From Spartobacteria bacterium (GTDB lineage: Bacteria; Verrucomicrobiota; Verrucomicrobiia; Chthoniobacterales; UBA6821), in contig CANIVT010000007.1 in the NCBI GenBank assembly GCA_947471565.1, positions 6,909 to 70,908 on the forward strand: DNA of 64,000 bases, in the 5' to 3' direction. Of this stretch, positions 8,147 through 14,700 are shown piece after piece. Numbering within the stretch: position 1 is the stretch's first letter; the number at the start of each line of letters is the position of its first letter. The notes beneath the pieces were generated by a model. The model was not told the DNA's origin. It did no database searches and was given only the letters and a program-made list of their open reading frames with translations. The position numbers were made by a program, and so were the translations under genes.

Positions 8147-9064
8147 TTATCCACAGAAGACATTTCTTCTGTGCCATCCGAGATGTTCTTCGGACGGACG
8201 GAGCATCACCCCATCTAGAAAGTGTAATGGCGCACCGTTCCGAGACTTCAGCCAAGACGCCTCAGGACCCCACTCTGTGAAAACCGTAGGTGCGACACAG
8301 ACACGCTTACTCTCATCAACTGTCCATAGTCCTTCATCAAACATCCAATGCGCATCACGGGTTAGAGCAAGCCCGTTATCGGGATTGTCATTCCGGCTCT
8401 TTGAGAATGCGTGGACATGTGCAGCCTCCACAAGAGTCGCCCCTTTGGAGGTATGGCATCCATAACCAGTGAGAGCGCATGAAAATCTATATTGCGTGAC
8501 CACGACGATCCGGAACCGTGCATCTCTGCCTTTAGACTGATACTCTTGGGAATCTTCCCGCAATTTAAACGCAGCCTTCTGGGCCTCGGCCTTGCCAATG
8601 CCCATGGCTGCAAGTAATCCCTGCTGCTCATGATCAGGAAACCAGCTACGAATAAGTATAAACCTAGCAAGACGCCTAAACGAAGCATCTTGGAGGATCT
8701 CAAAGAAATCCCTGTTGAAACGAACTGATGTTGTAGTATCTGCGGAGTTACTCACTTTTCTATCCAGCCGGAGAGGATCCCAGAAGCCCTGACTTCCTAG
8801 ATGATGAAAAGGAAGATCTAAGCCAGGCCGTCCACCCCACCGCGATTGCACAAGGGACCAATACGAGTCAAACCTTAGACGAAGCTCAGGAGATTTTCCC
8901 AGATTTTGATTTGCTAACTCAGAACTATCTGCCAAATCCAGAATGCATAGCAAAAGGAGGGGTTTGTGAGGGGCAAATCGAGCATTCCCGTTGCCCCTGG
9001 AATTACTAACGTTAGGGCGAAGCTTTTGTAGACGCCCTAACCATAGCTGCTGATTTGCATTCAT
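8147..9064 (-). CDS. HNH endonuclease with an SBD-like N-terminus (putative type IV restriction enzyme)
   Basis: PHKPLLLL..LPFHHL N-domain; EAAHV..DNGLALTRDAHWMFDEG HNH; looks AT-richer than the flanks. Confidence 0.82.
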   Translation of the reverse strand: MNANQQLWLGRLQKLRPNVSNSRGNGNARFAPHKPLLLLCILDLADSSELANQNLGKSPELRLRFDSYWSLVQSRWGGRPGLDLPFHHLGSQGFWDPLRLDRKVSNSADTTTSVRFNRDFFEILQDASFRRLARFILIRSWFPDHEQQGLLAAMGIGKAEAQKAAFKLREDSQEYQSKGRDARFRIVVVTQYRFSCALTGYGCHTSKGATLVEAAHVHAFSKSRNDNPDNGLALTRDAHWMFDEGLWTVDESKRVCVAPTVFTEWGPEASWLKSRNGAPLHFLDGVMLRPSEEHLGWHRRNVFCG

Positions 9065-11140: not shown

Positions 11141-11926
11141 TTACTCTCCCTTGGCGAGTCGCGCAGCGTTGTGCGCCGGAAGGCCGGCTTTCTTGAACCG
11201 GGCCCGGGCTTTGCCGATGTCGTAGCTCACACGGCGCATGAGCAGGAGCCGCTGCTCGTAATCGTAGAGTGCGTAGGAGGCGCGTGGGTCGCCATCGCGA
11301 GACTGTCCCACCGAGCCAACATTGACGGTGTAGCGTTTGGAGGGATCCAGGAGGATGGGCTTCTCTCCGGGGGTGAGGCATCGGACGCCGAAGGTCTCCG
11401 GGTTCTCCTCCCAGATGCCGGGAACATGAGTATGTCCGTTGAAGCTGATGAAAGTGCTCTGGGCGGCGAAGTGGGCCTCGGCCTCCGTGGTCTCATGGAT
11501 GTAGTGAAACTCCGGTGGCTCGTTCAGCGAAGCGTGGGACAGGGTGATGGGATCGAGATTCACGGTGATGGGGAGATCCCTGAGCCAGCCAAGCTCGGCT
11601 TTGCTGACCTGCTCCTTGGCGATCTGCAGCGGTTTGCGGACAGGCACATCCCAGTCCTCCTCGAGGATCTTGTCCGCCAGCAGCAGCATGGCCTCGTGGT
11701 TACCCAGAACGGTGACTGCACAGAGGTCCATTACTTTCCTCACGCATGCTCCGGGCTCCGGTCCGTATCCGACGATGTCGCCCAGACAGAGGATCCCCCT
11801 GACCGGAAAGTCACGGAGATCCGCCAGGACCGCCTCGAGGGCGTCGAGGTTGGCATGGATGTCACTGATGAGGGCGAAGAAGTTATGGGTTGGGGTGGTT
11901 GTTTTGGCTTTTTGGGGTATGGGCAT
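11141..11926 (-). CDS. calcineurin-like metallophosphoesterase
   Basis: ISDIHAN, LGDIVGYG, LGNHE, GHTH, NVGSVGQSRDGDPRA. Confidence 0.93.
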   Translation of the reverse strand: MPIPQKAKTTTPTHNFFALISDIHANLDALEAVLADLRDFPVRGILCLGDIVGYGPEPGACVRKVMDLCAVTVLGNHEAMLLLADKILEEDWDVPVRKPLQIAKEQVSKAELGWLRDLPITVNLDPITLSHASLNEPPEFHYIHETTEAEAHFAAQSTFISFNGHTHVPGIWEENPETFGVRCLTPGEKPILLDPSKRYTVNVGSVGQSRDGDPRASYALYDYEQRLLLMRRVSYDIGKARARFKKAGLPAHNAARLAKGE

Positions 11927-11929
11927 GGT

Positions 11930-12000
11930 GAAAATAGGCTCTTAGGCTGAAAGCTCTTAGACTGAAGACTGTTAGGAGGAGCTGAAGGGGAGCTGGGTAA
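11930..12000 (+). repeat. heptamer-like intergenic repeat
   Basis: aaaataggctcttaggctgaaagctcttagactgaagactgttagg. Confidence 0.8.
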
Positions 12001-12104
12001 TGGGGGCGCGTGAAAAACACACACCTCTACCCTTAGGGGAATGAGTCAGAAGTTCTCGCCCGGCTCTTGTGAGTGGAGGTTTTCATTATCGGGATCTGCA
12101 ATTT

Positions 12105-12192
12105 GAGGCTCGCAAGCTTGGATGGAGAGCTAGGCGGTCAAGTGAAGGCGTAGTAGTCCTACGCCGAACACAGACCAACGCGGCTATTCGCC
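12105..12192 (+). repeat. ~87-bp structured dispersed repeat, copy 2
   Basis: GGCGTAG-TAGTC-CTACGCC stem; similar to 9130-9216. Confidence 0.8.
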
Positions 12193-12215
12193 AAGATCGT
12201 GAGACTCACACCTCC

Positions 12216-12464
12216 TTAGTCCTCGTAGTGGACGGCCTCGCACAGGAGGCTATCCCTCAAGACCCGGGCAATGCCCGAGTCGCTGGTGTGGAGGCTGCGG
12301 CGCACCCGGCGCTTGGTGTGGTCGGGCAAGTGCTCGGTGTAGTGGACCCACCAAGTGCCATTATTATTCCAAAAATGGTGAAATGGGTTAGCTGTGGTCC
12401 TGATGGAGAGGACCGGCCTGTCGATGGTTGCTGTGCTCGGGTGGATTGTATTCGATGCGCTCAT
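12216..12464 (-). CDS. small hypothetical protein resembling an integrase arm-type DNA-binding domain
   Basis: 82 aa; HHFWNNNGTWWVHY..KRRVRRSLHTSDSGIARVLRD. Confidence 0.7.
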   Translation of the reverse strand: MSASNTIHPSTATIDRPVLSIRTTANPFHHFWNNNGTWWVHYTEHLPDHTKRRVRRSLHTSDSGIARVLRDSLLCEAVHYED

Positions 12465-12506
12465 GTCGGTGTTTCAGTTGGTTGAAACACCAGGAACCCG
12501 GGCAAC

Positions 12507-12548
12507 AAAAAAGCGCCTCCTTGATCGGATGATCAGGAAAGGCGCTTT
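12507..12548 (-). terminator. intrinsic terminator in the 5' leader of the 12216-12464 gene
   Basis: AAAGCGCCTTTCCTGATC/GATCAAGGAGGCGCTTT followed by a T run. Confidence 0.85.
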
Positions 12549-12684
12549 CGAGAAGCCTGGAGAGATTTTTGTTCGGAGGATTTCTCCCTCCGCACATCGA
12601 CCGGCTTTCACCGATCAGCCACCGTGGGATTTCTCCGTCCCCGGTTGGCATCCTTTGGTATCACCCAAAGGCATTCCTGATGCT
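12549..12684 (-). ncRNA. putative riboswitch/attenuator-like leader RNA (unassigned)
   Basis: four consecutive hairpins, three with GAAA loops, between a sigma70 promoter and a terminator. Confidence 0.55.
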
Positions 12685-12690
12685 GATACT

Positions 12691-12719
12691 TGTATAGCAG
12701 AGGGCGACCGGGCTTGCAA
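12691..12719 (-). promoter_or_regulatory. sigma70 promoter (extended -10)
   Basis: TTGCAA-N17-TATACA with TG upstream of the -10. Confidence 0.7.
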
Positions 12720-12751
12720 GTCGGCAAGCCATGCCCTGTGTGTCATAGAGG

Positions 12752-12916
12752 CTATGCCCCCACGATCGAGAAGAACCTTTTGAGGATGCCTCGGGCCATC
12801 CGTCGTGTGGCGCTCTCGGGGAGGGCCTCCTGCCGGATCCGTGTGGAGCGTTTCTCATCGGCCCATTGCCAAAGGTTTCCCTCGGGGAGGTGGATGCGTT
12901 TGGTGGCGGTTTTCAT
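12752..12916 (-). CDS. 54-aa basic small protein downstream of lexA (not in the ORF track)
   Basis: MKTATKRIHLPEGNLWQWADEKR...ILKRFFSIVGA; preceded by an A/C-rich leader (..ACACACC-ATG) like that of the 24523 gene. Confidence 0.5.
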   Translation of the reverse strand: MKTATKRIHLPEGNLWQWADEKRSTRIRQEALPESATRRMARGILKRFFSIVGA

Positions 12917-12944: not shown

Positions 12945-13556
12945 TCACGGAGTGGCCGTGCGGATGAGTGCGCGGAAGACTCCCTGGATCACGAGTTCGT
13001 GCGCTGGGATCAGGTCTGGGTAATCGGGATTCTCGGCACGCAGGAAGGGCCGGCCGGCCTCGACGAGGTAGCGCTTGAGCGTGACGGCGCCGTCGATCAG
13101 CGCGGCGACGATGTCGCGGTGGCGTGGCTCCGCGATCTCGAGGATGACGGTGTCGCGGTTAAGGATGCCGGCCCCGATCATGGAGTCCCCCCTCACCTCG
13201 AGGGCGAAGGTCCGTGAGTTCCCGGGCAAGCGGACCATCGAGGGAACAACCTGGAGTGTTCTCTCGGAATCCTGCTCCTGTCCCTCGGGGATTCCGGCGG
13301 GGATCATGCCGTAGAGGGGGATCTCCAGAAATTCCGGTCTCGGCCTGAAATCGCGCAGCACGATGTTCCGGGAGCGGCCCGACTCGCGGCGGATGACCCC
13401 TTTTTTCTCCATCAGGTCGAGGTGGCTCGCGACGGTCGCCGGGGACCGGAATCCAAAGCGGGTCATGATCTCCCGGACCGAGGGAATGCTACCGCGATCC
13501 TCCGCGTGGGAGCGGATGAAAGAGAGGATTTCGTTCTGTCGGGCCGTGAGAGTCAT
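12945..13556 (-). CDS. lexA: LexA repressor
   Basis: LTARQNEIL, PSVREI, SPATVASHL, IPAG cleavage site, VRGDSM, TLKR. Confidence 0.96.
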   Translation of the reverse strand: MTLTARQNEILSFIRSHAEDRGSIPSVREIMTRFGFRSPATVASHLDLMEKKGVIRRESGRSRNIVLRDFRPRPEFLEIPLYGMIPAGIPEGQEQDSERTLQVVPSMVRLPGNSRTFALEVRGDSMIGAGILNRDTVILEIAEPRHRDIVAALIDGAVTLKRYLVEAGRPFLRAENPDYPDLIPAHELVIQGVFRALIRTATP

Positions 13557-13560
13557 ATGC

Positions 13561-13574
13561 CGTACATTTGTTCG
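13561..13574 (-). promoter_or_regulatory. candidate LexA box CGAAC-AAAT-GTACG
   Basis: near-palindrome 4 nt upstream of the lexA ATG. Confidence 0.55.
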
Positions 13575-13626
13575 GTATCTGAAAAACGAGTGCCCCGCAA
13601 GGGTTTTTTCAGCCATCCTCTCCCTC

Positions 13627-14700
13627 ATGAAACCGTACGAGTTCCTCAAGACACTCCTCAACACCCCCTCCCCCTCCGGCTTTGAGACCCGTGGTCAGAA
13701 GGTCTGGGTCGACTATGTCTCGCGCTTTGCCGATTCCGTGGAGACCGATTCGTACGGCAACGCCTTTGCGACGCTCCATCCAACCGAGGGAGAGGGCGAC
13801 CCGTGTGTGCTGATCAGCGGGCACGTGGACGAGCTCGGCTTCATGGTTTCCCACATCTCCGACGAGGGATATCTCTCGATCAAGGGAATCGGAGGCGTCG
13901 ACAACACCCTGGTGCGCGGTCAACGCGTCACCGTGCACGGTGAGAACGGTCCCGTTCCCGGGGTCACCGGTCTGCTGGCCATCCACCTGCAGGAGCCCGA
14001 CGACCGCAAGAAGGTGCCCGATCTCCACACGATGCACATCGACATCGGGGTCTCCTCGCGCAAGGAGGCCGAGAAGCTCGTGTCTGTCGGTGACGCCGTC
14101 ACCTACTCGGCGGAATTCCAGGAACTCGAGGGAGGTCGCTTCGCGGCCCGAGGATGCGACAACCGTATCGGCGCCTGGGCGGCGGCCGAGGGACTGCGTC
14201 TTGCCTCGCTCAAAAAAGGAAAACTCAAGGCACGTCTGGTCGCCGTCTCCACGATCCAGGAGGAGAACGGACTCTACGGGGCCTCGATGGCCGGATACCG
14301 GGTCCACCCCGACGTGGCGCTGGTGGTCGACGTCACTCACGCGACCGACATCCCCAACTGCTCCAAGATCAAGCACGGCGACGTGAAGATGGGCAAGGGC
14401 CCCGTCATCAGCATCGGGAGCGTGAACCATCCCGTCGTCAACGCGCGTCTGCGCAAGGTCGGCAAGAAGGCCGTCATCCCGCTCCAGGCGGAGGTCAATC
14501 CCCGCTGGTCGGGAACCGATGCAGACGCGATCTTCAAGACCAAGGGTGGCATCCCGACCACCTCGATCGGCGTGCCCAACCGCTACATGCACTCCCCCGT
14601 GGAGATGATCCAGTATTCCGATCTGGAGCAGACGGCGGAACTGCTCGCCGCCTTTGCCCTGGACTGCGGCAAGGGTGAGCGTTTCGGGGTCAGGGTCTGA
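13627..14700 (+). CDS. M42 family metallopeptidase
   Basis: PSPSGFE, GHVDELG, DNRIG, QEENGL, VVDVTH, RYMHSPVE. Confidence 0.95.
   Translation: MKPYEFLKTLLNTPSPSGFETRGQKVWVDYVSRFADSVETDSYGNAFATLHPTEGEGDPCVLISGHVDELGFMVSHISDEGYLSIKGIGGVDNTLVRGQRVTVHGENGPVPGVTGLLAIHLQEPDDRKKVPDLHTMHIDIGVSSRKEAEKLVSVGDAVTYSAEFQELEGGRFAARGCDNRIGAWAAAEGLRLASLKKGKLKARLVAVSTIQEENGLYGASMAGYRVHPDVALVVDVTHATDIPNCSKIKHGDVKMGKGPVISIGSVNHPVVNARLRKVGKKAVIPLQAEVNPRWSGTDADAIFKTKGGIPTTSIGVPNRYMHSPVEMIQYSDLEQTAELLAAFALDCGKGERFGVRV

What the first reader, a model, noticed from the sequence alone, without database searches (positions are those of the whole stretch)
12505..12719. Orphan riboswitch-like leader: promoter, four hairpins, terminator, small gene
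On the minus strand: TTGCAA-N17-TATACA promoter; stems at 12652-12671, 12622-12644, 12599-12616 and 12575-12591 (the last three with GAAA loops); then a strong intrinsic terminator 43 nt before the ATG at 12464. This is classic attenuator layout, yet I cannot match it to SAM, TPP, FMN, B12, glycine, c-di-GMP, c-di-AMP, guanidine or ZTP consensus. It is a candidate new cis-regulatory RNA, or a stand-alone sRNA of about 175 nt.
Basis: partly seen in the sequence, partly recalled or inferred. Interest (0 to 1): 0.7.

Follow-up and report, generated by a model that had tools for sequence, protein, structure and literature searches.

The report
SAM-I/IV riboswitch before small gene
The "orphan" structured leader belongs to an already known class of S-adenosylmethionine-sensing RNA switch (SAM-I/IV); what is unusual is that across Verrucomicrobiota this switch almost always controls one small uncharacterised protein rather than methionine genes.

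Summary
Its claim that the RNA matches no SAM class is wrong.

- **Class.** With permissive filters, window 12688..12558 (-) matches Rfam SAM-I-IV (RF01725) end to end at 42.6 bits (cut-off 41.1). Rfam's fast filters missed it.
- **Architecture.** The four hairpins are P2, P3, P4 and P5. P1 and the PK-2 pseudoknot (GGAGA 12636-12632 with UCUCC 12563-12559) complete the class architecture.
- **Support.** Eighty-five relatives from the same order give strong covariation. The SAM-contacting core is invariant or nearly so.
- **Mechanism (inferred).** It is an OFF switch. Without SAM, the 5' strand of P1 plus J1/2 pairs with UUCCUGAU inside the terminator's 5' arm. A second complement, next to a hairpin just before the AUG, suggests added translational control.
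- **Copies and target.** The genome holds three copies. In 66 of 80 instances the first downstream gene is a ~75-aa protein (HHLWNNNGTWW...TKRRVRRSL) of unknown function. About 71 of 80 such genes carry the switch, and the two occur together across genomes.
- **Extra element.** A conserved TATGACAC box lies upstream of the promoter.

Verdict: a new member of a known riboswitch class, with an undescribed gene association. Moderate interest.

The parts
12553..12688 (-). SAM-I/IV riboswitch aptamer (P1-P5 plus PK-2)
   Evidence: RF01725 scores 42.6 bits (GA 41.1), E 9.4e-6, model positions 1-99 of 99. Own model R1 scores 150.8 bits.
12679..12683 (-). P1 5' strand, GCAUC. Together with J1/2 (AGGAAU, 12678-12673) it also acts as the switching segment.
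   Evidence: The A-U and U-A pairs are near-invariant across 79 distinct relatives. G11 and A12 of J1/2 are invariant.
12594..12598 (-). P1 3' strand, GAUGU
12652..12671 (-). P2, an undivided 7-bp hairpin with no internal loop or k-turn
   Evidence: All 7 pairs show double (compensatory) changes.
12618..12649 (-). P3 with the conserved GCCAACC / GGUGGC core and bulged A. Its loop carries the PK-2 5' strand GGAGA (12636-12632).
   Evidence: The core pairs C-G and A-U are invariant or nearly so, and the inner pairs covary.
12599..12616 (-). P4 hairpin with a GNRA loop, inside the four-way junction
   Evidence: All 7 pairs covary. The GAAA loop becomes GCAA in the paralogous copy.
12574..12592 (-). 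P5 hairpin, 3' of P1
   Evidence: All 7 pairs covary.
12559..12563 (-). PK-2 3' strand, UCUCC, which pairs with GGAGA in the P3 loop
   Evidence: The best loop-tail helix averages 5.77 bp against 3.71 +/- 0.11 for shuffled tails. Compensatory variants occur, e.g. CAGAGA/UCUCUG and GUGAGA/UCUCAC.
12507..12548 (-). Intrinsic terminator: stem 12548-12513 and U-tract 12512-12507. Its 5' arm holds X1, UUCCUGAU (12539-12532), complementary to AUCAGGAA of P1/J1-2.
   Evidence: Folding. X1 is present in related terminator-bearing leaders.
12459..12497 (-). Second complement X2, GUUCCUGGUGUU (12497-12486), overlapping a hairpin (12492-12483 with 12476-12467) that ends 3 nt before the AUG. GUUC 12497-12494 can pair with GAGC 12462-12459.
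   Evidence: There is a 12-bp complement to 12685-12674. The hairpin covaries across genera. The complement changes with the J1/2 sequence: AGGAA/UUCCU, AAGAG/CUCUU, ACGAG/UCGUG.
12691..12719 (-). Promoter-like TTGCAA-N17-TATACA. The inferred transcription start is near 12684.
   Evidence: Seen directly in the sequence. TTGC and TAnAnn hexamers are conserved in position in relatives. No transcript data were available.
12740..12747 (-). Conserved TATGACAC box upstream of the -35 hexamer; candidate protein-binding site
   Evidence: A TGAC(A/G)(C/A) core (TGACAC, TGACAA or TGACGC; mostly the full TATGACAC) was found in 69 of 79 distinct instances, 47-50 or 57-61 nt before the aptamer. It also occurs in Opitutae loci. 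Three of the genome's 20 copies sit at the three riboswitches.
12216..12464 (-). Regulated gene: an 82-aa protein of a large uncharacterised family (HHxWNNNGTWWxHYT...TKRRVRRSLxT)
   Evidence: It is the first downstream gene in 66 of 80 riboswitch instances. It is under purifying selection. AF2 gives pLDDT 83 with a beta-sheet plus one helix. The only family signal is a sub-threshold Pfam DUF6538 hit.

Best explanation
The element is a SAM-I/IV-class S-adenosylmethionine riboswitch working as a genetic OFF switch for the small gene at 12464-12216.

**Aptamer.** Transcription probably starts near 12684. The aptamer (12688-12553) folds into a four-way junction of P1, P2, P3 and P4. It is followed by hairpin P5 and a pseudoknot (PK-2) between the P3 loop and the 3' tail.

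**With SAM.** P1 and PK-2 are locked. The terminator (12548-12507) then forms and transcription stops, leaving an RNA of about 178 nt.

**Without SAM.** The weak 5-bp P1 opens. Its 5' strand plus J1/2 (AUCAGGAA) pairs with UUCCUGAU in the terminator's 5' arm as soon as that arm emerges. This acts as an antiterminator, so RNA polymerase reads through.

**Possible second layer.** In read-through RNA the same 5' segment can pair with a second complement, 12497-12486. Otherwise that complement helps a hairpin occlude the AUG region, which would be a translational layer of control.

**What is shown and what is inferred.**
- Shown: class membership by covariance model, architecture, covariation, core conservation, conserved complementarity, and the gene association.
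- Inferred: SAM as ligand, the switching order, the translational layer, and the function of the protein.
For: **Class and structure**
- RF01725 matches the full model above the gathering score at the window copy (42.6 bits) and at a paralogue (43.2 bits).
- Published class features are an undivided P2, no PK-1, a P4 helix, and P5 with PK-2 (PMC6890682). The order of helices in the crystallised env87 RNA agrees (sequence in PMC5393176). All of these are present here.
- Across 79 distinct relatives, 95.4% of cells are paired against 72.5% in shuffles. Twenty-six of 36 pairs carry double changes, and every pair of P2, P4 and P5 covaries.
- PK-2 is supported by covariation.
- The SAM-clan core is invariant or nearly so: CAUC / GAUG, G11 and A12 of J1/2, CAACC / GGUG.

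**Switching**
- Stepwise folding gives P1 as the minimum-free-energy structure at 129 nt.
- At 158-169 nt the minimum-free-energy structure is the 5'-segment:X1 helix, with pair probabilities of 0.71-1.0.
- The terminator is favoured once its 3' arm exists.
- Complements to P1-5'/J1-2 are far longer than chance: mean 8.8 bp against 5.4 for shuffles. They co-vary with three different J1/2 sequences across families.

**Distribution**
- The RNA is found in 61 of 201 genomes of the order.
- The small protein lies directly downstream in 66 of 80 instances.
- The RNA lies upstream of the protein gene in 53 loci, plus 18 more with filters off, out of 80.
- The small protein was found in 10 of 10 genomes that had a match to the RNA model and in 1 of 20 that had none.
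Against: - The Rfam score is only 1.5 bits above the cut-off, and the default filtered scan of the window found nothing.
- No ligand-binding or transcript data exist.
- Downstream genes are mostly not classical methionine or cysteine genes.
- At equilibrium the antiterminator (-69.3 kcal/mol) is weaker than the terminator (-78.4), so the model depends on kinetic control.
- In this copy, forcing the full 12-bp pairing with X2 is unfavourable (-81.5 against -104.0). The pre-AUG hairpin survives in the minimum-free-energy fold, so the translational layer is weakly supported here.
Confidence: 0.85

Rival explanations
1. It is a specificity variant of the SAM clan, or a new riboswitch class, that senses a metabolite other than SAM. 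That would explain why it controls an unknown protein rather than methionine genes.
For: - The gene context is atypical. The small unknown protein is the first downstream gene in 66 of 80 instances.
- The other first genes are YbjN-like proteins, a DSP phosphatase and unknown families.
- The Rfam score is marginal.
Against: - Every nucleotide known from SAM-I structures to contact SAM is invariant or nearly so in 79 sequences. This covers the P1 A-U/U-A pairs, G11, the C-G and A-U pairs of P3 and the bulged A. The contact list is established knowledge, not tested here.
- Some operons do contain SAM-related genes. Canonical MetK follows the small gene in L041 (identified by reading the translated sequence, not by a family search). 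A MetK-like gene lies in the C24 operon, and ThiS lies after the third copy.
Confidence: 0.07
2. The terminated ~178-nt RNA (about 12684-12507) is itself the functional product: a trans-acting sRNA, as described for SAM-riboswitch-derived SreA/SreB in Listeria (from my own knowledge). Regulation in cis would be secondary.
For: A strong terminator follows a stable structured RNA. The genome holds three copies.
Against: - The coupling to the downstream gene is tight and runs in both directions.
- The expression-platform complements extend to the AUG.
- Many relatives have no terminator at all, only the AUG-proximal hairpin.
- No target complementarity was sought or found.
Confidence: 0.08
3. It is a decayed, orphaned leader left behind by rearrangement in an insertion hotspot, with the 82-aa ORF being an integrase N-terminal remnant.
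For: - The region borders toxin-antitoxin cassettes (earlier notes).
- The paralogous C24 locus carries 5.4 kb of extra genes between the small gene and the phosphoesterase.
- There is a weak DUF6538 hit.
Against: - The ORF belongs to a family with 960 representative clusters. All 150 best are stand-alone proteins of 63-150 aa.
- It is under purifying selection.
- The direct arrangement of small gene then phosphoesterase recurs in other genomes.
- All parts of the aptamer and platform are intact.
Confidence: 0.02

Closest known systems
SAM-I/IV riboswitch (Rfam RF01725; Weinberg et al. 2010, PMC2864571; env87 crystal structure PDB 4L81, sequence in PMC5393176)
   Same: - Same order of elements: P1, J1/2, undivided P2, P3 with CAACC/GGUG core, P4 hairpin, P1', P5 hairpin, and a 3' tail pairing with the P3 loop (PK-2).
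- Full-length model match above the gathering score.
   Different: - J1/2 is AGGAA, against ACGAG in env87 and AAGAG in the Rfam consensus.
- P2, P3 and P5 are longer, which is why Rfam's fast filters miss it.
- The expression platform uses the 5' strand of P1 plus J1/2 as the switching partner of a distant terminator arm.
- The regulated gene is an uncharacterised small protein.
SAM-I riboswitch (RF00162)
   Same: Shares the ligand-binding core and a four-way junction with P4.
   Different: - There is no kink-turn or internal loop in P2 and no PK-1.
- P5 and PK-2 are added.
- The RF00162 model does not reach E <= 1 on any of the three copies, yet finds the genome's one canonical SAM-I at 80.1 bits.
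SAM-IV riboswitch (RF00634)
   Same: Shares P5, PK-2 and the binding core.
   Different: SAM-IV lacks P4 and has a split P2 with PK-1 (PMC6890682). This RNA has P4 and an undivided P2.
N-terminal arm-type DNA-binding domains of tyrosine integrases / Pfam DUF6538 (for the regulated protein)
   Same: Sub-threshold DUF6538 matches in 9 of 9 members tested (best E 1.6e-5). The predicted fold is a beta-sheet followed by one helix.
   Different: - It is a stand-alone protein of about 75 aa with no catalytic domain.
- The window protein scores 16 bits against a cut-off of 27.
- No significant structural match was found in PDB or BFVD.
- No integrase-length proteins appear among the 150 best relatives.

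Membership tests
SAM-I/IV riboswitch (RF01725) | Covariance-model score at or above the curated gathering score over the whole model | tested here: met
   Scores 42.6 bits against 41.1, model 1-99 of 99. A paralogue scores 43.2 bits. It was found only with permissive filters; the default scan gave 0 hits.
SAM-I/IV riboswitch (RF01725) | SAM-clan binding core: P1 A-U/U-A pairs, G in J1/2, and P3 C-G and A-U pairs flanking a bulged A (CAACC/GGUG) | tested here: met
   These positions are invariant or at least 74 of 79 in relatives, and are present in the window copy.
SAM-I/IV riboswitch (RF01725) | Undivided P2 (no kink-turn or internal loop) and no PK-1 | tested here: met
   P2 is a continuous 7-bp hairpin and all its pairs covary. 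Only one nucleotide (U12617) separates P3 from P4, so there is no J3/4 strand to form PK-1. The feature definition is from PMC6890682.
SAM-I/IV riboswitch (RF01725) | P4 helix inside the junction | tested here: met
   Located at 12616-12599. All 7 pairs carry double changes.
SAM-I/IV riboswitch (RF01725) | P5 hairpin 3' of P1, and PK-2 between the P3 loop and the 3' tail | tested here: met
   All 7 P5 pairs covary. The PK-2 helix averages 5.77 bp against 3.71 for shuffled tails, with compensatory variants.
SAM-I/IV riboswitch (RF01725) | Selective binding of S-adenosylmethionine | not testable with these tools
   Needs in-line probing, ITC or a transcription assay.
SAM-I/IV riboswitch (RF01725) | Location upstream of SAM, methionine or sulfur metabolism genes | tested here: inconclusive
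   Some operons hold MetK, a MetK-like gene or ThiS. Most instances precede only the unknown small protein.
SAM-I riboswitch (RF00162) | Match to the family model; kink-turn in P2 and PK-1 | tested here: not met
   There is no RF00162 match at E <= 1 at any of the three copies. P2 has no internal loop.
SAM-IV riboswitch (RF00634) | Three-way junction without P4; split P2 with PK-1 | tested here: not met
   P4 is present and covaries. Within the clan, cmscan kept SAM-I-IV as the best match.
Pfam DUF6538 (regulated protein) | Score at or above the Pfam gathering score (27 bits) | tested here: not met
   The window protein scores 16 bits, E 0.0098. All 9 members tested match weakly, and a few distant homologues carry a precomputed PF20172 label.

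The most novel reading that the evidence does not exclude
The ~75-aa protein may be a SAM-responsive nucleic-acid-binding regulator whose level is set by the riboswitch. It may bind the conserved TATGACAC box that precedes every riboswitch-controlled promoter of this kind, giving autoregulation and co-regulation of the few other riboswitch units. That would be a riboswitch-to-transcription-factor relay spread through Verrucomicrobiota.
Probability: 0.2. Interest if true: 0.65.

Novelty: new member of a known kind. Interest (0 to 1): 0.38.

Why it matters
For the RNA itself the result is corrective. A suspected new riboswitch is a member of a class known since 2010 and crystallised in 2014.

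Three points have some value beyond that.

1. **Annotation gap.** Standard Rfam scanning with fast filters misses these Verrucomicrobial members. They are therefore probably unannotated in public genomes.
2. **Undescribed gene association.** I found no description of this pairing. The library searches for DUF6538 and for SAM riboswitch with Verrucomicrobia returned nothing. The switch and a large family of small unknown proteins (960 representative clusters) travel together and are lost together. This links the protein family to SAM status and offers a route to its function.
3. **Unusual platform.** The expression platform uses the 5' strand of P1 plus J1/2 as the mobile element. Its complements co-vary with three different J1/2 sequences. 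In this genus a terminator is combined with an AUG-proximal hairpin.

Tried and rejected
- **Rfam gathering scan of the whole window:** 0 hits. This was a false negative caused by the filters.
- **tRNA/tmRNA scan:** none found. This ruled out my first idea of an integrase fragment next to a tRNA-like integration site.
- **Extra hairpin 12616-12599 as a new feature:** I first read it as a novel insertion relative to the Rfam consensus. I rejected this because P4 is a defining part of SAM-I/IV.
- **SAM-I model:** no match on these copies.
- **Small protein:**
  - PDB profile search gave only chance hits.
  - Foldseek against PDB and BFVD gave nothing at E <= 0.001.
  - NCBIfam gave none, and PHROGs gave one weak integrase hit.
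  - The profile search of 1.84 billion representatives returned only short stand-alone proteins among the best 150.
- **Full 12-bp anti-sequestor with X2:** forcing it in this copy costs about 22 kcal/mol relative to the minimum-free-energy fold. I therefore downgraded the translational layer for this locus.
- **TATGACAC as a -35 element:** rejected, because no -10-like hexamer follows it at 16-18 nt.
- **TATGACAC as a genome-wide regulon signal:** rejected, because the other 17 copies in the genome appear, from their sequence context, to lie mostly within coding regions.
- **Not available:** Trausch et al. 2014 is not held in the library.

Full report
**Observation.**
- Promoter hexamers: TTGCAA (12719-12714), 17 nt, TATACA (12696-12691).
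- Four hairpins: 12671-12652, 12649-12618, 12616-12599 and 12592-12574.
- A G+C-rich hairpin at 12548-12513 followed by T6 (12512-12507), ending 43 nt before the ATG at 12464.

The 191-nt leader is much more stable than shuffled versions: -78.4 against -57.2 +/- 4.0 kcal/mol, z = -5.35. The simple promoter and terminator scanner reported neither signal, because both fall outside its strict rules. ARAGORN found no tRNA or tmRNA.

**Identity.**
A gathering-threshold Rfam scan of the whole window returned nothing. The same library searched with permissive filters on 12400-12800 gave a full-length match to SAM-I-IV (RF01725). It covers 12688..12558 on the minus strand at 42.6 bits against a gathering score of 41.1, E 9.4e-6. 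A whole-genome search with that family found this copy and a second one on contig C24 at 43.2 bits. BLAST found a third copy. So the genome holds three copies.

I first took the hairpin 12616-12599 for an insertion, because the Rfam consensus has no helix there. The literature shows it is the normal P4 of the class. SAM-I/IV has an undivided P2, lacks PK-1, and has a P4 helix plus P5 and PK-2 (PMC6890682). The crystallised env87 RNA (PDB 4L81; sequence printed in PMC5393176) has the same order of helices.

The window RNA reads as follows.

| Element | Window coordinates |
|---|---|
| P1 | 12683-12679 with 12598-12594 |
| J1/2 (AGGAAU) | 12678-12673 |
| P2 | 12671-12652 |
| P3 | 12649-12618 |
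| P4 | 12616-12599 |
| P5 | 12592-12574 |
| PK-2 | GGAGA 12636-12632 with UCUCC 12563-12559 |

The SAM-I model does not match these copies at E <= 1. It does find one canonical SAM-I elsewhere in the genome, at C38:4403-4517 with 80.1 bits.

**Comparative support.**
I built a covariance model from 12 copies with the P1-P5 structure (R1).
- It found all three own copies (150.8, 150.0 and 126.5 bits).
- It found matches in 61 of 201 genomes of the same order, in 25 of 71 genera.

On 85 model-aligned matches (79 distinct):
- 95.4% of cells form standard pairs, against 72.5% in shuffles and 34-44% when partners are slid.
- 26 of 36 pairs have changes on both sides.
- Every pair of P2, P4 and P5 covaries.
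- The alignment is fitted to the model and the sequences are related, so these numbers lean towards the structure. The sliding control and the many pair types still argue strongly for it.

PK-2 was not in the model, so I tested it separately. The best helix between the P3 loop and the tail averages 5.77 bp, against 3.71 +/- 0.11 for shuffled tails. Compensatory variants include CAGAGA/UCUCUG, GUGAGA/UCUCAC and GGAGAAC/GUUCUCC.

Core positions are invariant or nearly so:
- the A-U and U-A pairs of P1;
- G and A of J1/2;
- GCCAACC and GGUG of P3;
- GAUG of P1'.

From SAM-I structures (established knowledge, not tested here), these are the positions that contact SAM.

**Expression platform.**
The 5' strand of P1 plus J1/2 (AGCAUCAGGAAU, 12685-12674) has two downstream complements.
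- X1 is UUCCUGAU (12539-12532), inside the terminator's 5' arm.
- X2 is GUUCCUGGUGUU (12497-12486). It overlaps the 5' arm of a hairpin (12492-12483 with 12476-12467) that ends 3 nt before the AUG.

Across 46 distinct leaders, the best complement to this segment averages 8.8 bp against 5.4 +/- 0.13 in shuffles.

The complement also changes with J1/2:

| J1/2 sequence | Complement | Where |
|---|---|---|
| AGGAA | UUCCU | this genus and others |
| AAGAG | CUCUU(C)GAUGC | one family group |
| ACGAG | UCGUGAUGCG | Opitutae-type loci |

In the last two groups there is no terminator. The complement overlaps a hairpin that abuts the AUG (GAUGCGU/ACGCAUC-AUG, and GCGUC/GACGC-CC-AUG). That is the classical layout for translational control.

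For the window copy, stepwise folding gave the following.
- At 129 nt, P1 is the minimum-free-energy structure.
- At 158-169 nt, the 5'-segment:X1 helix is the minimum-free-energy structure, with pair probabilities 0.71-1.0 and P1 at 0.
- Once the 3' arm is made, the terminator is favoured (-78.4 against -69.3 kcal/mol).

This fits a kinetically controlled OFF switch in which SAM locks P1 and PK-2. That is inference; nothing here measures it.

The translational layer is weaker for this copy. The pre-AUG hairpin persists in the minimum-free-energy fold. Forcing all 12 pairs with X2 is unfavourable. The P1-locked state adds only GUUC/GAGC pairs that reach the G of the AUG.

**The regulated gene.**
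The 82-aa ORF is a real gene.
- Relatives differ about twice as often at third codon positions, and synonymous codon changes outnumber non-synonymous ones.
- It is the first downstream gene in 66 of 80 riboswitch instances in the order.
- What follows it varies and is often on the other strand. A metallophosphoesterase recurs, MetK follows once, and a MoxR ATPase follows once.

In the other direction, 348 loci in species-representative genomes encode relatives. By record title they are essentially all Verrucomicrobiota: Chthoniobacterales ("Spartobacteria"), Terrimicrobiaceae and Opitutales. Of the 80 fetched:
- 53 have an R1 match directly upstream on the same strand;
- 18 more have one at the same place with filters off;
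- four Opitutae loci reach 40-41 bits with RF01725 itself.

In a sample of 30 genomes, the small protein is present in 10 of 10 genomes where R1 found the RNA and in 1 of 20 where it did not.

The protein has no assigned function.
- All 127 database homologues are labelled hypothetical.
- Pfam gives only sub-threshold DUF6538 matches, 9 of 9 members with best E 1.6e-5; the window protein scores 16 bits against 27.
- NCBIfam gave nothing and PHROGs one weak integrase hit.
- The AF2 model (pLDDT 83) shows a small beta-sheet followed by one helix.
- It has no significant match in PDB or BFVD.
- A profile search of 1.84 billion representatives finds 960 clusters. The best 150 are all proteins of 63-150 aa.

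A nucleic-acid-binding role is therefore only a guess, based on the basic TKRRVRRSL segment and the weak arm-domain resemblance.

**Other copies and context.**
- Copy C24_a is 90% identical to the window copy. It precedes a paralogue of the small gene, then a 112-aa ORF, a MoxR-type AAA ATPase, a VWA protein, a divergent MetK-like protein, and a metallophosphoesterase 80% identical to window 11141-11926.
- The window locus has the small gene and the phosphoesterase without the 5.4-kb block in between. Both arrangements occur in relatives.
- Copy C24_b precedes a 96-aa unknown ORF and a ThiS-family protein.

**Upstream box.**
A motif, mostly (C/T)TATGACAC with a TGAC(A/G)(C/A) core, lies 47-50 or 57-61 nt before the aptamer in 69 of 79 distinct instances, whatever gene follows. 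It also occurs in Opitutae loci. In the window it is at 12747-12740. The two distance classes differ by about one helical turn. The 8-mer occurs only 20 times in the genome (about 44 expected from composition), and three of those sit at the three riboswitches. A protein-binding site is the simplest reading. Whether the small protein binds it is untested.

**Verdict.**
The proposal of a new RNA class is not supported: this is a SAM-I/IV riboswitch with an intrinsic-terminator platform. The residual novelty lies in the tight, phylum-wide coupling to an uncharacterised small protein family, the conserved upstream box, and the use of the P1 5' strand plus J1/2 as the switching element.

**Not available.**
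The Trausch et al. 2014 paper is not held in the library.

Noticed in passing
window 12740-12747 (-); also L003:2348-2355 (+) and about L003:10426-10433 (-): A conserved TATGACAC box lies at a fixed distance upstream of the promoter of nearly every SAM-I/IV unit in the order and in Opitutae loci. The distances fall in two classes about 10 bp apart. It is a likely protein-binding site, and the binder is unknown.
   Followed up: partly
window 11141-12701 versus L003:2394-2824 and 8291-9053 (G000 contig C24): Segmental paralogy. The riboswitch plus small gene (78% identity) and the metallophosphoesterase (80% identity) are duplicated. Only the C24 copy has a 5.4-kb block between them: a 112-aa ORF, a MoxR AAA ATPase, a VWA_CoxE protein and a divergent MetK-like protein.
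   Followed up: partly
L003:10247-10382 (-) (G000:C24:16246-16381): A third, more divergent riboswitch copy precedes a 96-aa ORF with no family match and a ThiS-family sulfur-carrier-like protein.
   Followed up: partly
window, whole: Rfam's default fast filters miss these SAM-I/IV members even though the full model scores above the gathering cut-off. Such riboswitches are probably unannotated in Verrucomicrobial genomes.
   Followed up: yes
L058:3001-3696 and L052:389-1106: Two complete riboswitch modules lie in tandem. Each has its own box and terminator. A ~100-aa ORF follows the first and the small protein gene follows the second.
   Followed up: no
L132, L138, L139, L142, L143, L145, L147, L148, L150-L152, L157, L159, L162 (about 400-550 nt upstream of the aptamer): In Opitutae-type loci a tRNA gene lies at a conserved distance upstream of the riboswitch and small-protein unit.
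   Followed up: no
G000:C38:4403-4517 (+): The genome's single canonical SAM-I riboswitch (RF00162, 80.1 bits) sits at the end of a 4.6-kb contig, so its regulated gene is cut off.
   Followed up: no
window 12752-12916 (-) and 12945-13664 (-): A LexA homologue (LexA_DNA_bind plus Peptidase_S24) is followed by a 54-aa ORF with no family match. That ORF's stop codon lies 5 nt before the TATGACAC box.
   Followed up: no
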